NCBI GenBank assembly: GCA_964360605.1
Contig: CAYHXN010000004.1
Span: 1-41,976, forward strand
Direction: 5' to 3'
Source: an uncultured Candidatus Saccharibacteria bacterium
GTDB lineage: Bacteria; Patescibacteriota; Minisyncoccia; UBA6257; WO2-44-18
DNA length: 41,976 nucleotides
Shown here: piece by piece, positions 3,219-35,439 of the stretch
How the letters are laid out: every line of letters starts with the position of its first letter
How positions within the stretch are numbered: the stretch's first letter is position 1
The notes under the pieces: generated by a model
Databases searched by the model: none
The model's input: only the letters and a program-made list of their open reading frames with translations
What the model was told of the DNA's origin: nothing
Program-made: the position numbers and the translations under genes

Positions 3219-3953
3219 TTATGAACTTTTAACTTGCTGGAGCATTGTTTCTAACTGCAACCTTTTATTGGTGTTGTATCTTTTGATCATTGACCAGCGG
3301 TGTAAAACTTCTTTAATCGCCTTCCAGTTTTTAATAATATCACGACGGAGCTCGCTTATTAAGCCCGCGATAAATTCTTCCAAAATCTTATCTTCTCCGG
3401 TTTCTTTTACTTGATCTACTAATTCTTTGATGATTTCTTTGCGCCGACTAACCGAGGATCCAAAAAATTCTTTGAGTCTTGGATTTGTCTCGATGCCTTG
3501 ATTAAGAATCTCGGATTTCCCGTGCACATATATTTTTTGAAGGCGCGATACGAGGGTAGGCAACAAAACCTCCTCGTTTTTAGCTATCAAAATAATCAGC
3601 GCGTGGCTTGGCGGCTCTTCCACGGTCTTCAAAATCGCGTTTTGCGCTTCGTCCGTTAAAGAATCGGCATCTGGTACGATTAAGGTTTTCCGTGCCGACC
3701 TAATCGGTTTCTGCCACAAAAAAGCTATTCCTTGGCGCACATTATCAATTCCGAAGCCCGACAAAATTAAAGAGTCTAGCAAAACCGCGTCGGGTTTTTC
3801 TCGCCATTTTTTTGATTCTAAATAATTAATAAATTCCTTCGCGAAATTCACCGCTTCGCCGCTGCCTTCTCCAAAAAATAAGTATCCATGAAAAAGGGAG
3901 TTTTTATCCGCTAATTTTTTAAAATCTTTTTTTAATTCTGCGATAACTGCCAT
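3219..3953 (-). CDS. holB: DNA polymerase III delta-prime-like clamp loader subunit
   Basis: HGYLFFG, ADSLTDEAQNAILKTVEEPP, LLPTLVSRLQ; Walker A degenerate. Confidence 0.85.
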   Translation of the reverse strand: MAVIAELKKDFKKLADKNSLFHGYLFFGEGSGEAVNFAKEFINYLESKKWREKPDAVLLDSLILSGFGIDNVRQGIAFLWQKPIRSARKTLIVPDADSLTDEAQNAILKTVEEPPSHALIILIAKNEEVLLPTLVSRLQKIYVHGKSEILNQGIETNPRLKEFFGSSVSRRKEIIKELVDQVKETGEDKILEEFIAGLISELRRDIIKNWKAIKEVLHRWSMIKRYNTNKRLQLETMLQQVKSS

Positions 3954-4001
3954 AAGTTTATTATAACAAAGTTATCAACATCACAATTTTCGCGTTTCTT
4001 G

Positions 4002-4027
4002 TATAATAAATTTATTGTTCTTTAAAA
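4002..4027 (+). promoter_or_regulatory. -10 element followed by boxA-like motif
   Basis: TATAAT at 4002-4007; TGTTCTTTAAAA at 4016-4027 resembles boxA (TGCTCTTTAACA). The -35 match is weak. Confidence 0.5.
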
Positions 4028-4224
4028 CAAATTTGGTGTCCCCTTCGGGGGACACCATTAGAATCCTCTGGTAGCCGCGTTCTCGCGCTTGCCGGCTCTA
4101 GGGGAAAGGGGCTCTCACGAGTCTCCCAAACGACGCGCCAGCGACATTTCTAAGTCGCCGATCCTTCGGGACACGGAGGCAAGCGGATCCCCGGACATGT
4201 TAACCACTGTCCGGGGCTTTTTTT
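4014..4224 (+). ncRNA. Candidate ~210-nt structured ncRNA, family unknown
   Basis: 10-bp stem with cUUCGg loop (4034-4057), second cUUCGg hairpin (TCC-TTCG-GGA), CGCTTGCC/GGCAAGCG long-range pairing, and a terminal intrinsic terminator. No credible ORF. Confidence 0.6.
4189..4224 (+). terminator. Intrinsic terminator
   Basis: CCCCGGACA/TGTCCGGGG stem followed by C and T7. Confidence 0.8.
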
Positions 4225-4237
4225 ATTTATTGGGAAT

Positions 4238-4265
4238 AAAAAACCCCGAGACCGAAGTCTCGGGG
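4238..4265 (-). terminator. Intrinsic terminator
   Basis: Minus strand CCCCGAGAC-TTCG-GTCTCGGGG-T6. Confidence 0.9.
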
Positions 4266-4880
4266 AATGCCAAAATTTTTCCTATCCGCCATGTTCACTT
4301 TCCGAGCAAAGCTGAAGTACTATCTAATTATTGTAGCCATTCAGTGCTCGCTCGGCGGCTGGATAGAAATAGTGGGCTTTTTCCGACGACAGTGAGGCGT
4401 CCCTCACTGTCGTCGGATAGGACGCCTACCGTCTAAACGGCAGGCTTTAGCCCCCAGAGAATCCAAGATGGATCGGTTGCGCGACCGTCCATCCTACCAG
4501 CTCAAAAGCGGGCAACCCGCCGGCCAGTCATGCCCGTATCGGGCTGAACTCTCCTTCGAACCTTCAAACCAATGTTTTTCACAAAGAGCAAGGGAGGGGG
4601 CTTGAGGTAACCGGCTTAGACAATCGCCGACGTGTTTTAGCACTCCCTCAAGCCCCCTGCTTCAGAAAACCATTCGCAATGATTTGCTGGAGCAGGGGGC
4701 CGATGGGCACAGTACATCCTGTACATTAAGTGCTCCATCGGCCGGTTGTTTTTTCAAAGGTGCTGTGTTTCACCTCTTCTTCGGAGGCGCGCGCTTTTTG
4801 GTTAACTGAGCGCGATCCGCACCCGAGCTTGGGATGGCCTTGCGGCTGTCCCAAGCTCGGGAGCTGATTATCAGTTTCGC
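4238..4880 (-). ncRNA. Candidate ~640-nt large structured ncRNA, family unknown
   Basis: Bounded by a consensus promoter and a UUCG terminator. Nearly continuous GC-rich helices, two boxA-like motifs, and no minus-strand ORF of 60 aa or more in the track. Confidence 0.7.
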
Positions 4881-4886
4881 CCTGCT

Positions 4887-4914
4887 ATTATAGCAAACCC
4901 ACAGGATTTGTCAA
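4887..4914 (-). promoter_or_regulatory. Consensus sigma70 promoter with extended -10
   Basis: TTGACA-16 nt-TATAAT with TGn directly upstream of the -10 hexamer. Confidence 0.9.
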
Positions 4915-4921
4915 GGACTTC

Positions 4922-5196
4922 GGAAACTCACTTTTCGGAAACAGTGTGGCTGATCTCCTGCGGATCGGCCCACTTCTTATCTCGGCGCGTTGCCGATCGT
5001 AAAATTTGATAACGATCGGGCCAATCCAACGCGCCTCCGATACGTTCCGAAAAGTGAGTTTCCTACGTTTTTGGGCTTGGAAATTGGAATTTATGTGCTA
5101 ACCCCGCCTGATGCCCTATTGGATATCCCTCAAAAAGAGGGTTTTATTAAAATGTGCTATAGGGCATCGGGTGGGGCGGGGAGACTTACGTCTCCC
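4922..5196. other. Structured non-coding element(s): multibranch stem plus long hairpins
   Basis: 19-bp inverted repeat GGAAACTCACTTTTCGGAA/TTCCGAAAAGTGAGTTTCC (4922-5063) enclosing two hairpins; 18-bp stem at 5102-5176; hairpin at 5177-5196. Confidence 0.6.
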
Positions 5197-5422
5197 CATT
5201 GGACTTTTTGTTGTCCTCGATCGCCTTTTCTATGACGGCGATCTGGGCGATGGTTCGCTCCGGCGCCAGACGGGGATTTAGGACCCACTTTAGGTCCGTT
5301 TCCATCCGGCCCCTTCGGAATCGCGGAACGGTTCCTGGAGCCACCTCCAGCCCCAAATTACGGAGCTGGTTTCTGGCCTTCCGAGCCAGAAACACCTCGG
5401 AAACCTTCATTTGTTTGGTCAT
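5186..5422 (-). CDS. Small basic hypothetical protein (78 aa)
   Basis: Start re-called to ATG 5422 (MTKQMKV...), with GGAGGT Shine-Dalgarno at 5427-5432 and its own promoter; 16 Arg/Lys versus 9 Asp/Glu. Confidence 0.75.
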   Translation of the reverse strand: MTKQMKVSEVFLARKARNQLRNLGLEVAPGTVPRFRRGRMETDLKWVLNPRLAPERTIAQIAVIEKAIEDNKKSNGET

Positions 5423-5444
5423 ATCAACCTCCAATTCTGCGTCC

Positions 5445-5472
5445 ATTATAGCATATCTACAAATTTTGTCAA
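5445..5472 (-). promoter_or_regulatory. Consensus sigma70 promoter with extended -10
   Basis: TTGACA-aaatttgtagatatgc-TATAAT. Confidence 0.9.
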
Positions 5473-5506
5473 GAGCCAAAAAATTCGTTTTGGATTTAAG
5501 TAAATC

Positions 5507-6514
5507 CTATCTCTTATTTAAAAGCGTTCTCTTATAAACGTCCAAGTGATTTAAAATCAAGCCAGCCCCCTTAGCAACGCAAAAGAGCGGTTCTTCGGCA
5601 ACATAAGTCGGGACGCCAGTCATCCGTTTGAAGAATTCATCAATGTAATGGAGGTGGGCGCCGCCGCCGGAAAGAATAATTCCCTTTTCCATAATATCCG
5701 CCACTAATTCCGGCGGAGTGCTATTAAAAACACTTTGCACAGAAGCGGCAATATCCATAAGATGCGGGTTCAAAGCTTCGGCGATTTCGTTAGAATTCAA
5801 AACAACGTCGCGAGGAAGGCCGTTCACAAGATCGCGGCCGCGAACCTTGACCTCCATCCGGTCCTTTGTCGTCAGCGCCGCCCCAATTTCAATTTTAATA
5901 TGCTCCGCCATTTGCTCTCCAATCGCCAAAGAATACTTTCGTTTTATATAGTCCGTAATCGCTTGGTCAAACTTATTACCAGCCACTCTTAAACTAGCCC
6001 AAGCCACGATGCCACCCAAAGAAACCACCGCTACCTCCGAAGTGCCACCACCAATGTTAATAATCATATTTCCTGAATGGCTGTTAATTGGAATGCCGGC
6101 TCCCAACGCGGCCAGAATTGGCTCTTTAACGATGTAGGCCTCTTTTGCTCCCGCTTCTCTGGCGGCGTTCATTACCGCCCGTCGTTCCGTTGGCGTAATT
6201 CCGGCGGGAACAGAAAGCACTACCTCGGGTTTAAATAAATTAAAAGGCCCCACTGCTTTCGCAATGAAGTATTTAAGCATTGCTTTTGTAATATAATAAT
6301 CGGCGATCACGCCGTCCTTGAGGGGCCGATAAGCGACGATATCATCCGGCGTACGACCAATCATTTCCTTAGCTTCCCTTCCAACCGCTAAAACCCCGTT
6401 ATCGGGAACGCTTAAAGCCACGATGGTCGGTTCGTTAACGACAAAACCTTTATTAGGAACAAAAACAATAGTATTGGCGGTTCCTAAATCTATGCCTATT
6501 TTTCTAGTAAACAT
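5507..6514 (-). CDS. mreB: Rod shape-determining protein MreB
   Basis: GIDLGTANT, RPLKDGVIAD, NIGGGTSEVAV, GIILSGGGA. Confidence 0.96.
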   Translation of the reverse strand: MFTRKIGIDLGTANTIVFVPNKGFVVNEPTIVALSVPDNGVLAVGREAKEMIGRTPDDIVAYRPLKDGVIADYYITKAMLKYFIAKAVGPFNLFKPEVVLSVPAGITPTERRAVMNAAREAGAKEAYIVKEPILAALGAGIPINSHSGNMIINIGGGTSEVAVVSLGGIVAWASLRVAGNKFDQAITDYIKRKYSLAIGEQMAEHIKIEIGAALTTKDRMEVKVRGRDLVNGLPRDVVLNSNEIAEALNPHLMDIAASVQSVFNSTPPELVADIMEKGIILSGGGAHLHYIDEFFKRMTGVPTYVAEEPLFCVAKGAGLILNHLDVYKRTLLNKR

Positions 6515-23894: not shown

Positions 23895-25310
23895 CTATTC
23901 GGAGCTAGCCTCGCCCTCTAAAAAGAATTCAATCGTAACTAAAAGAAGCTTTATCTGGTGCACCGGAATAATCAACTTATCTTTTCCAGAACCATTAGTA
24001 ATCAGCTGAGCTACTTCGCCAATTTTTTTCTCTGCCTCTCTAAAAAGCGCCGACAGTTCCGGTTGGTTTTCTTTGTTAAAACCGGAGTCTGCCGCGATTT
24101 GGAACAAACGGTCATAGTCAGCCGCTAAAATTTTAATTTCAACACTCGCGTCTGGAGAAAAAAGTTGAGCAATCGCGGTTCGAGCCGCGGCGGCGGACGC
24201 GATTGCTTGACCGAAGGCGTTTCCGTAATTTTCCTTAGCTAAAAGTTCGTTGGCTTGTTCAATCTGAAACTTAGCGCGATCCCAAAGCTGTTTCACTGAC
24301 GAAGGAATTGGTTTTATTTCCGCTAAAACCTTTTCTAGCTCCGCTAAGTATTTTTCCGCGATCGCGATCGCGACGGTAGACTCTTCTTCCCCAATTCGGC
24401 CATTAGCTCTTAACTGGTCTATAAAGTGCTGGCGCAAAACGTTAATCTGGCTCTTAAGATCACTATTCGCGATTAATTCCCGCACTTCATCAAGCAAACG
24501 AAGGCGCCTCAAGAAATCCGAACTAGAAACATCAAAGCCCGGTAAAACCAAAACACCGCCAACTAATGATTGGTATTCTAGCCATCCACTAAAACGAATC
24601 AATAATGTTTCTTTACTAATCGCAAGCTGACGCCGTTCGGTATCGCCAAGATATTCTCCCCAGCGTTCAATAATTTCCGCGGCACCCAACTCCCGCAACG
24701 ACTCCAGATAATTGAGCGCGCTCTTTAAAATAGCGTCGGCTAAGCCCTTGTCGTCCGCAGAAACAGTAAAGAGAACGCTAATTGAACGGCCGATTAATTC
24801 TCTTACATTAGAAGCGCTGGCTTGAAAATCGGCGTTTTGGGAAAATTTTTCATGAAGCTCATCAAAGATTTGTTCGTGGAAAAAAAGCTGGTCGGCAGTT
24901 TTAGCCAAAAACTTTTCAATGTCGAGGGTAGATTTAAAACCACGCAAGGCTTCTAGACGAGCCAATAAGACTGCCAAGCTGTCGGCGTAATTATCCGCCG
25001 CTAGCAAAATGGCGGCTATATTTTCATCATTAATCATCTCTAACTTTTTCAACTCGGCTAATTTGCTTTGAGCTATGTCTAAATCCCAACTAGCCTTTTT
25101 AATGACGTCAAAAAGCAAGGCCCGCTTGAATCCGCGTCCCCACTCTTTAATGAAATAGAAAGGATTAGTCGGTAAAAGACCGATGCTTTGGCTAGCTAAG
25201 TCGCTGTCAGAGCTGTTAGTAGCCAAGGCTAAATGCTCCCCAATACCTATAAAAGCCACTCCGGCCAAAATAAAAAAGCCCAAAATGGCTGTTTTAATAC
25301 TCTTTTTCAC
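23895..25310 (-). CDS. Exported helical protein, DUF5667-like
   Basis: Signal/TM segment followed by GLLPTNPFYFIKEW; the rest appears all-helical. Confidence 0.65.
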   Translation of the reverse strand: MKKSIKTAILGFFILAGVAFIGIGEHLALATNSSDSDLASQSIGLLPTNPFYFIKEWGRGFKRALLFDVIKKASWDLDIAQSKLAELKKLEMINDENIAAILLAADNYADSLAVLLARLEALRGFKSTLDIEKFLAKTADQLFFHEQIFDELHEKFSQNADFQASASNVRELIGRSISVLFTVSADDKGLADAILKSALNYLESLRELGAAEIIERWGEYLGDTERRQLAISKETLLIRFSGWLEYQSLVGGVLVLPGFDVSSSDFLRRLRLLDEVRELIANSDLKSQINVLRQHFIDQLRANGRIGEEESTVAIAIAEKYLAELEKVLAEIKPIPSSVKQLWDRAKFQIEQANELLAKENYGNAFGQAIASAAAARTAIAQLFSPDASVEIKILAADYDRLFQIAADSGFNKENQPELSALFREAEKKIGEVAQLITNGSGKDKLIIPVHQIKLLLVTIEFFLEGEASSE

Positions 25311-25347: not shown

Positions 25348-25496
25348 AGATCCCGCCGCCTTTATCTGACGGGACCGGCGTCCATTTGCTCCAGCGGCAA
25401 ATAGCGCCTTATCTCTCGCCCCGTCGCTCCGATGTTCATCGGAGACCAAGCCGTCGGGGCTCCAAGACATCCCGCATGATAAAAGCGGCGGGATCT
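25348..25496 (-). repeat. Nested inverted-repeat element (MITE/REP-like or structured 3' UTR) downstream of rpoD
   Basis: 19-bp terminal inverted repeat AGATCCCGCCGCCTTTATC/GATAAAAGCGGCGGGATCT with one mismatch (a G-U pair on the minus strand), enclosing several hairpins. Confidence 0.7.
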
Positions 25497-35368: not shown

Positions 35369-35439
35369 CGGAGTATGGGGTAGTGGTAGCCCGCGTGCAT
35401 GGGGTGCATGCAGCCCCGGTTCGATTCCGGGTACTCCGA
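35369..35439 (+). tRNA. tRNA-Pro(GGG), CCA not encoded
   Basis: Acceptor CGGAGTA/TACTCCG, anticodon arm CGTGC-ATGGGGT-GCATG, T arm CCCGG-TTCGATT-CCGGG. Confidence 0.95.

What the first reader, a model, noticed from the sequence alone, without database searches (positions are those of the whole stretch)
4238..4914. Candidate ~640-nt highly structured non-coding RNA with its own consensus promoter, boxA-like motifs and terminator
Seen: a perfect TTGACA-16-TATAAT promoter with extended -10 (4914-4887, minus strand) points into ~640 nt with no credible ORF, ending at CCCCGAGAC-UUCG-GUCUCGGGG-U6. Almost all of it can pair. Helices include a 13-bp stem capped by GCC-GCAA-GGC (4822-4861), GGCCGATGG/CCATCGGCC (4698-4743), two helices competing for one C5/G5 run (4596-4699), a perfect 16-bp stem (4382-4417), GCCUGCCGU/ACGGUAGGC (4424-4445) and a long irregular hairpin (4278-4370). 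Several helices gain G-U pairs only on the minus strand, although a few favour plus. Two boxA-like motifs lie in apparent linkers (GCACCTTTGAAAA 4763-4751; TGCTCTTTGTGAAAA 4590-4576). Known: boxA recruits NusB/NusE to long untranslated transcripts such as rRNA. I see no RNase P (GAGGAAAGUC), tmRNA, SRP or group II intron domain V signature. Inference: an undescribed large ncRNA, kept in an otherwise gene-dense reduced genome.
Basis: partly seen in the sequence, partly recalled or inferred. Interest (0 to 1): 0.88.

Follow-up and report, generated by a model that had tools for sequence, protein, structure and literature searches.

The report
Orphan 640-nt hairpin-rich RNA gene
A strongly folded, non-coding stretch of about 640 bases, framed by a textbook promoter and terminator, sits in a small insertion found only in this groundwater bacterium, so it is probably a young accessory RNA and not a conserved core RNA.

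Summary
Window 4238-4914 (minus strand) has a perfect TTGACA-16-TGnTATAAT promoter, about 640 nt with no credible ORF, and a 9-bp UUCG hairpin followed by U6. Folding is far beyond chance (z -14.3 by the tool, -10.6 by my shuffles; three core CDS controls +0.3 to +0.8). It is the most structured of 78 ORF-free gaps in the genome.

No Rfam family matches. It is single-copy. No homologue was found in 401 genomes of the order, 401 of the phylum, the phage and plasmid collections, or 55 metagenome loci carrying the same promoter.

The RNA is not "kept". It lies in a 1.27-kb GC-rich insertion between mreB and holB that the same-genus relative lacks, and other relatives carry unrelated cargo there. 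The claimed G-U strand bias (19 vs 16 pairs) and the boxA reading were not borne out. No covariation or expression test was possible, because three studies hold identical copies and no RNA run was listed.

Best reading: an orphan accessory ncRNA of unknown role.

Next to it lies a new dispersed three-way-junction repeat with strong covariation. It has 13 copies here and occurs in 73 of 151 order genomes.

The parts
4887..4914 (-). Promoter P2. It is a perfect -35/-10 pair with a 16-nt spacer and a TG extension. The 28-mer is an instance of a consensus promoter found across Patescibacteria.
   Evidence: Identical or near-identical 28-mers occur in 7 of 201 order genomes, 18 genome-contig loci, all Patescibacteria, and 55 metagenome loci. 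None was found in IMG/VR.
4244..4880 (-). The roughly 640-nt non-coding, hairpin-rich transcript body, here called RNA640. The 5' end near 4880 is inferred from the -10 box.
4238..4265 (-). Intrinsic terminator: 9-bp G+C-rich stem, UUCG loop, U6.
   Evidence: A plus-strand-oriented hairpin with T7 lies back to back with it at 4195-4231.
4921..5065 (-). One copy of a dispersed, roughly 140-nt three-way-junction repeat (model R1). It ends 7 nt upstream of the -35 box of P2.
5186..5422 (-). Orphan 78-aa basic ORF with a GGAGG ribosome-binding site. It is the first unit of the same insertion.
   Evidence: The AF2 model is weak (pLDDT 59).
5445..5472 (-). Promoter P1, a second perfect consensus promoter that drives the 78-aa ORF.
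5101..5182 (-). Long imperfect hairpin between the 78-aa ORF and the R1 repeat.
   Evidence: The segment 4915-5185 folds with z -10.0.
4232..5506 (.). Extent of the GC-rich insertion (50-56% G+C against 42% for the genome), judged against the same-genus genome G001.
   Evidence: Logan contigs bridge both junctions: X1 covers 3800-4264 and X4 covers 4852-5599.

Best explanation
RNA640 is a real, independently transcribed non-coding RNA of about 640 nt. A full-consensus sigma-70-type promoter starts it near 4880 and an intrinsic terminator ends it at about 4238-4243. It is an orphan accessory gene, not a housekeeping RNA. It arrived, together with a 78-aa basic ORF and a copy of a dispersed structured repeat, as part of a 1.27-kb GC-rich insertion in a variable spot between mreB and holB.

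Shown: the promoter and terminator frame, the lack of coding capacity, the extreme local helicity, single copy number, and absence from relatives.

Inferred: that it is transcribed, and what it does. My best guess at mechanism is a stable, abundant, RNase-resistant multi-hairpin RNA that acts in trans as a protein-binding scaffold or decoy, possibly with the co-inserted basic 78-aa protein. It does not look like a base-pairing regulator or a catalyst. There are 15 hairpin loops with no recurring loop motif, no long single-stranded seed, and almost all pairing is local.
For: - The promoter is one of only 12 perfect TTGACA-N15-19-TATAAT sites in 641 kb.
- The same 28-mer stands in front of short, terminator-ended RNAs and of ORFs with ribosome-binding sites in other Patescibacteria. 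It is therefore a working promoter type.
- The terminator works only for the minus strand, and no plus-strand promoter lies inside the region.
- No ORF exceeds 49 aa, and no six-frame peptide matched the loci held or the rest of the own genome at E<0.05.
- Folding z is -14.3 / -10.6, against about 0 for core CDS and -4 to -5 for RNase P RNA and tmRNA.
- It ranks first of 78 ORF-free gaps by MFE per nucleotide.
- G+C is 54% in a 42% genome. From general knowledge, that is typical of structured RNA genes in A+T-rich genomes.
- Contigs from three studies carry the stretch without a single difference, and independent contigs bridge both junctions of the insertion.
- Two other Patescibacteria have long ORF-poor, hyper-structured sequences behind the same promoter: L011 (696 nt, z -12.1) and L014 (872 nt, z -8.5).
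Against: - There is no evidence of transcription.
- There is no homologue, so no covariation test is possible.
- It is absent from the same-genus genome.
- Both strands fold equally well and G-U pairs are not strand-biased.
- Many stems are perfect Watson-Crick duplexes of 9-16 bp. That fits DNA palindromes or very young sequence as well as it fits RNA.
- No recurring loop motif points to a defined protein partner.
- The 78-aa ORF is itself an orphan with a low-confidence model.
- The two analogues share no sequence with RNA640, and I did not examine their coding status beyond ORF lists and Pfam.
Confidence: 0.5

Rival explanations
1. There is no function at the RNA level. The stretch is a cluster of DNA palindromes or hairpin-forming insertion debris that piled up in a recombination or insertion hot spot. 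The promoter and terminator are left over from a former cassette.
For: - The site is hypervariable among relatives.
- A MITE/REP-like structured repeat sits directly beside it, and in G004 two such repeats flank the whole cassette.
- Both strands fold equally, G-U pairs are symmetric, and several stems are perfect.
- It is an orphan with no conservation.
- GC-rich orphan ORFs in comparable cassettes are also unusually structured (z about -5), so high structure may be a property of this kind of DNA.
Against: - None of the hairpins recurs elsewhere in the genome or in 401 + 401 other genomes. Real repeat debris, like R1, recurs.
- The promoter is a flawless consensus and the terminator is intact, which is not expected for decayed remnants.
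- The sequence is identical in three studies.
- No transposase of the Y1 or TnpB kind was found in the genome (the assembly is 88.6% complete).
Confidence: 0.25
2. It is not one functional RNA. It is either a precursor cut at its long duplexes (for example by RNase III) into several small RNAs, or a structured read-through 3' region of the 78-aa ORF transcript.
For: - The fold is beads on a string, mostly independent local hairpins.
- No canonical terminator lies between the 78-aa ORF and P2, so transcripts from P1 may run on into the region.
Against: - Its own full-consensus promoter stands directly upstream.
- There are no repeated units or processing motifs.
- Most stems are shorter than the roughly two helical turns usual for RNase III substrates. 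That figure is from general knowledge and was not tested here.
Confidence: 0.12
3. It is a divergent member of a described RNA class: a large Rfam ncRNA such as OLE, ROOL, GOLLD, HEARO or raiA; an ORF-less group II intron; or a TIGR stem-loop guide array as found in Patescibacteria.
For: - Its size and structure resemble the large bacterial ncRNAs.
- TIGR stem-loop arrays are described as tandem units with variable palindromic stems, and TIGR loci occur in this phylum (PMC12045711, passages read).
Against: - No Rfam match at gathering score, and nothing meaningful at E<=10.
- 0 box C motifs even with one mismatch, and CTGA at chance level (3 seen, 2.5 expected).
- No tandem periodicity.
- No Nop-domain protein in the genome or beside the locus.
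- RNase P RNA and tmRNA are encoded elsewhere.
Confidence: 0.03

Closest known systems
Large bacterial ncRNAs of unknown or recently studied function (OLE, ROOL, GOLLD, HEARO, raiA; Rfam families)
   Same: Several hundred nucleotides long, non-coding, very highly structured, and often carried on accessory or mobile DNA.
   Different: No covariance-model match. Those classes are defined by conserved, covarying, long-range architectures found across many genomes. RNA640 is a single orphan sequence made mostly of local, near-perfect hairpins.
TIGR stem-loop arrays (TIGR-Tas, PMC12045711)
   Same: TIGR loci occur in Patescibacteria. The stem-loop arrays are tandem hairpins whose stems vary in sequence yet stay palindromic, and they are transcribed as one array.
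   Different: No box C/D motifs, no dual-spacer loops of regular size, no unit periodicity, and no Tas/Nop protein nearby or in the assembly.
Multi-hairpin protein-sponge RNAs (CsrB/RsmZ type)
   Same: A long RNA made of many stem-loops behind a strong promoter, ending in an intrinsic terminator.
   Different: Only 1 of 15 hairpin loops carries GGA, and no other loop motif recurs.
REP/MITE-like dispersed palindromic elements
   Same: GC-rich hairpin-forming intergenic DNA in an A+T-rich small genome. A true example, the R1 repeat, lies 7 nt upstream of the promoter.
   Different: RNA640 is single-copy and none of its hairpins recurs.

Membership tests
Any Rfam 15 family (including OLE, ROOL, GOLLD, HEARO, raiA, group II intron, RNase P, tmRNA, SRP, 6S) | Covariance-model score at or above the family's gathering score | tested here: not met
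   the only hit in the window is a tRNA at 35369. (E<=10 on 3800-5700): the best hits are microRNA or sRNA models at 15-24 bits against cut-offs of 39-229.
TIGR stem-loop array | [quoted passage not shown] | tested here: not met
   0 box C matches with <=1 mismatch on either strand. CTGA occurs 3 times on minus and 4 on plus, against 2.5 expected. The motifs were recalled and checked against the passages of PMC12045711 read.
TIGR stem-loop array | An adjacent Tas protein with a Nop domain | tested here: not met
   The neighbours are MreB, a 78-aa orphan and HolB. Pfam Nop gives no match in the own genome at E<=0.1. The assembly is 88.6% complete, and a divergent Nop domain could be missed.
TIGR stem-loop array | Regular tandem units | tested here: not met
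   Tandem Repeats Finder gives 0 rows on 3900-5600 at minimum score 30. Hairpins differ in size and loop length.
CsrB/RsmZ-type sponge | Many hairpin loops carrying the same short binding motif (GGA) | tested here: not met
   1 of 15 hairpin loops.
boxA/Nus-antiterminated transcript | A boxA element like that of the organism's own rRNA leader | tested here: inconclusive
   The two strings exist. No 16S gene is assembled in the own genome. The 16S leaders of 3 of 3 family relatives examined (G004, G006, G008) show no similar string. Look-alikes with <=2 mismatches occur at 7 other places in the genome; I read only one in context.
Dispersed repeat (REP/MITE-like) | Multiple copies per genome | tested here: not met
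   Only self-matches in the own genome. By contrast the adjacent R1 element has 13 copies.
Stand-alone bacterial ncRNA gene (generic) | Own promoter, no ORF, intrinsic terminator | tested here: met
Stand-alone bacterial ncRNA gene (generic) | A detected transcript with defined ends | not testable with these tools
   None of the 9 runs listed as holding the stretch is on record as RNA.
Conserved structured RNA | Compensatory base changes among homologues | not testable with these tools
   No homologue was found. Contigs from three studies show 0 differences within 4238-4885.

The most novel reading that the evidence does not exclude
RNA640 is the clearest example of an unrecognised kind of gene in Patescibacteria: fast-turning-over, hyper-structured orphan long RNAs. 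They are expressed from the phylum-wide consensus promoter and exchanged as small cassettes at hot spots marked by the R1 repeat. Unrelated-in-sequence counterparts exist in at least two other lineages (L011 of G185, L014 of G024). Such RNAs would act as abundant ribonucleoprotein scaffolds or decoys, here perhaps with the 78-aa basic protein, in conflicts with phages or in dealings with the host cell of these episymbionts.
Probability: 0.2. Interest if true: 0.75.

Novelty: new member of a known kind. Interest (0 to 1): 0.45.

Why it matters
If it is transcribed and functional, it would show that ultra-small Patescibacteria genomes spend space on lineage-specific long structured RNAs that come and go as accessory cassettes. 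That is a layer of their biology nobody has charted.

As it stands it is one orphan sequence, with no evidence of conservation and none of expression, so its value is as a lead.

The more solid by-products are two. First, a widespread, strongly covarying three-way-junction repeat that is absent from Rfam. Second, a 28-nt consensus promoter shared across the phylum. Both can be used at once to annotate these genomes and to find more promoter-driven small and long RNAs.

Tried and rejected
Homologue searches that found nothing beyond the promoter and terminator:
- BLAST against 41 relatives, 401 order genomes and 401 phylum genomes.
- The phage and plasmid collections.
- nhmmer and blastn against all loci held.
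- 55 metagenome loci and 18 genome loci that carry the promoter.
- tblastn with six-frame peptides.

Expression: no RNA holder was listed among the 9 runs, so nothing can be said about expression. Laying four runs gave no variation inside RNA640.

The 78-aa ORF:
- No Pfam or PHROG family.
- Only itself among 5.8 billion proteins.
- No usable Atlas hit.
- The AF2 model has pLDDT 59, too weak for a fold search.

Ideas rejected:
- RNase P RNA, tmRNA, SRP RNA or 6S RNA in disguise. RNase P and tmRNA lie elsewhere, and SRP and 6S models do not match here.
- CsrB-like sponge.
- TIGR array.
- REP/RAYT or IS605-type element.
- DGR template or a repeat of another locus: no second copy exists.
- Promoter as a hallmark of a phage or mobile element: 0 hits in IMG/VR, and it fronts ordinary small RNAs and genes in many lineages.
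- A 10-base string shared by the 5' ends of RNA640 and L014 recurs in none of the other promoter loci apart from L109, which is the same sequence as L014. It may be chance.

Literature: four full-text searches found no paper on large or structured ncRNAs, or on palindromic repeats, in these bacteria. Of PMC12045711 I read only the passages returned by 'find'. Supplements were not requested.

Full report
WHAT IS THERE. Read on the minus strand, the window holds mreB (5507-6514) and holB (3219-3953), by Pfam. They are separated by 1.55 kb without a long ORF. Inside this gap, in order, are:
- a perfect promoter, 5472-5445;
- a 78-aa ORF with a GGAGG ribosome-binding site, 5422-5186;
- a long hairpin, about 5182-5101;
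- a roughly 140-nt three-way-junction element, 5065-4921;
- a second perfect promoter, 4914-4887;
- the roughly 640-nt stretch of the finding;
- a 9-bp UUCG hairpin with U6, 4265-4238;
- a further structured piece of about 200 nt, 4231-4014.

G+C is 50-56% across 4050-5450, against 42% for the genome.

CHECK OF THE OBSERVATION. The two helices that compete for one G5 run are real overlapping inverted repeats.

The fold is far more stable than that of dinucleotide shuffles: z -14.3 and -10.6 with my own shuffles. Three equal-length core coding stretches give +0.3 to +0.8. The genome's own RNase P RNA and tmRNA give -5.4 and -3.9.

Among 78 gaps of at least 250 nt without an ORF of 90 aa, this one has the lowest energy per base. 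No frame is open for more than 49 aa, and no six-frame peptide matched the loci held or the rest of the own genome at E<0.05.

Two details did not hold. The plus strand folds just as well (z -14.8), with 16 G-U pairs against 19 on minus. The direction therefore rests on the promoter and the one-way terminator, not on the pairs. The boxA-like strings are present, but the 16S leaders of all three family relatives examined have nothing similar. The own assembly has no 16S gene to compare.

WHAT IT IS NOT.
- Rfam 15 gives no family at gathering score and only noise at E<=10.
- RNase P RNA (contig 19) and tmRNA (contig 5) are elsewhere.
- It is not a dispersed repeat. Only self-matches exist in the genome.
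- It is not a CsrB-like sponge. One of 15 loops has GGA and no loop motif recurs.
- It is not a TIGR stem-loop array, the one described system in this phylum built from tandem, variable palindromic hairpins (PMC12045711, passages only). There is no box C, CTGA is at chance level, there is no periodicity, and there is no Nop-domain protein.
- The phage and plasmid collections hold nothing similar.

CONSERVATION.
- BLAST of the stretch or of the whole island against 41 relatives, 401 genomes of the order and 401 of the phylum returned only the 28-base promoter, the terminator hairpin and the junction element.
- The same-genus genome G001 has a 300-nt mreB-holB spacer. It keeps the roughly 200-nt structured piece next to holB but lacks everything from 4232 to 5506.
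- In G006 the two genes abut. G004, G002 and G003 carry other promoter-driven, GC-rich cargo at the site.
- One metagenome contig of a relative joins 3945 directly to 5526.
- The 78-aa protein has no relative among 5.8 billion proteins.
- Groundwater metagenomes of three studies hold the island. Their contigs show no difference within RNA640 and bridge both junctions.

The locus is therefore real and stable in this species, but it offers no variation for a covariation test. No RNA run was listed.

THE PROMOTER. The 28-mer recurs, identical or with one to three changes, in 7 of 201 order genomes, in 18 loci among 185,579 species genomes, all labelled as Patescibacteria lineages, and in 55 metagenome loci. 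It was not found in IMG/VR.

Downstream lie many different things: terminator-ended RNAs of 110-270 nt, small ORFs with ribosome-binding sites, GC-rich orphan ORFs, and in two cases long ORF-poor, highly structured stretches (L011, z -12.1; L014, z -8.5). I read it as the strong consensus promoter of these bacteria, including a conserved spacer. That makes transcription of RNA640 likely, though it is not shown. None of these cargoes resembles RNA640 in sequence.

THE NEIGHBOURING REPEAT. The element at 4921-5065 is one of 13 copies in this genome. Another lies in the window at 25355-25490. A 14-sequence alignment from six genera gives a three-way junction of 41 pairs, and 37 of those pairs show compensatory changes. 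In total 91.4% of cells are paired, against 64.4% in shuffles and 35-50% when the partners are slid. In 0 of 500 shuffles did any measure reach the observed value.

A covariance model finds it in 73 of 151 order genomes, with up to at least 21 copies each. Copies are intergenic and lie in either orientation. A promoter within 10 nt follows 2 of the 13, and a weaker promoter-like site at 21 nt follows a third. In G004 two copies flank the mreB-holB cassette. Rfam has no match. No Y1 or TnpB-type transposase was found. Whether it acts as RNA or as DNA is open, because G-U pairs are rare in it.

HOW IT MOST LIKELY WORKS. I commit, at about even odds, to a genuine accessory ncRNA. It would be transcribed from P2, ended at the U6 terminator, and be stable because nearly all of it is locked in local helices. 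It would act as a protein-binding scaffold or decoy, not by base-pairing or catalysis. The co-inserted basic 78-aa protein is the obvious candidate partner, but that link is pure inference.

The main rival, at about one in four, is that the stretch is palindromic DNA debris of a hot spot with no RNA-level role. Symmetric folding, perfect stems, orphan status and the MITE-like neighbour all fit that reading. Single copy number, the flawless promoter and terminator, and the fixed sequence speak against it.

VERDICT. The boxA argument does not stand. Interest is moderate. The covarying dispersed repeat and the phylum-wide promoter are the firmer findings.

Supplements of papers were not consulted. 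E-values from my model R1 are rough because calibration was short. The own assembly is 88.6% complete, so absences in it are provisional.

Noticed in passing
window 4921-5065 (-) and 25355-25490 (-); 11 more copies in the own genome: A dispersed three-way-junction repeat of about 140 nt with invariant junction and loop bases. 37 of 41 pairs show compensatory changes across 14 copies from six genera (91.4% of cells paired against 64.4% in shuffles). It was found in 73 of 151 order genomes, with up to at least 21 copies each. There is no Rfam match, and no Y1 or TnpB transposase in this genome. Whether it acts as RNA or DNA is unresolved.
   Followed up: yes
window 4887-4914 and 5445-5472; own genome C3:23845-23872; loci L004-L018, L079-L157: A 28-nt consensus promoter with a conserved 16-nt spacer is shared, nearly letter for letter, across many Patescibacteria lineages: 18 species genomes and 55 metagenome contigs, none in IMG/VR. 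It drives small RNAs, small ORFs and GC-rich orphan genes.
   Followed up: partly
window 4014-4231: A structured element of about 200 nt between the RNA640 terminator and holB. It is conserved in architecture, and in short blocks of sequence, in the same-genus genome G001. Read on the plus strand it has a conserved TATAAT box (4002-4007) and ends in a hairpin with T7 (4195-4231), back to back with the RNA640 terminator. The strand and identity are open, and Rfam does not match it.
   Followed up: partly
window 5186-5422 (-): A 78-aa basic ORF with its own perfect promoter and a GGAGG site. It has no relative in any protein collection searched, and the AF2 model is only three low-confidence helices.
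   Followed up: partly
mreB-holB spacer in G001, G002, G003, G004, G006 (loci L052-L056): The spacer downstream of mreB is a hot spot. It is empty in G006, holds 300 nt in G001, and holds unrelated promoter-driven GC-rich ORFs in G002, G003 and G004. In G004 two R1 repeats in the same orientation flank the cassette.
   Followed up: partly
own genome C3:23845-24900 (L017), L005, L012: Orphan ORFs of 242-270 aa with 62-67% G+C in genomes of about 42-50% G+C, behind the same promoter. They have no Pfam or PHROG family. Two of the three, L017 and L005, were folded, and their mRNAs fold far better than shuffles (z about -5), which is unusual for coding sequence.
   Followed up: partly
own genome C20:4805-4938 (+) and 5060-5198 (-): Two R1 copies in inverted orientation stand beside a cluster of DnaA-box-like strings. 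This may be the replication origin.
   Followed up: no
own genome (whole): No SRP RNA, 6S RNA or 16S rRNA was found with the Rfam models in this 88.6%-complete assembly. RNase P RNA (C19:131-523) scores 94.1 bits, just under the cut-off of 100.
   Followed up: no
G008:C2:23565-26069: The 16S rRNA match spans 2.5 kb for a 1.53-kb model, so the gene carries about 1 kb of insertion. An R1 hit (25030-25174, opposite strand) lies inside it.
   Followed up: no
window about 4855-4864 and L014/L084 5' end: RNA640 and the unrelated long structured RNA of G024 share one 10-base string within 30 nt of the predicted start. It recurs in none of the other promoter-bearing loci, so it may be chance (rough odds about 1 in 50 after multiple comparisons).
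   Followed up: partly
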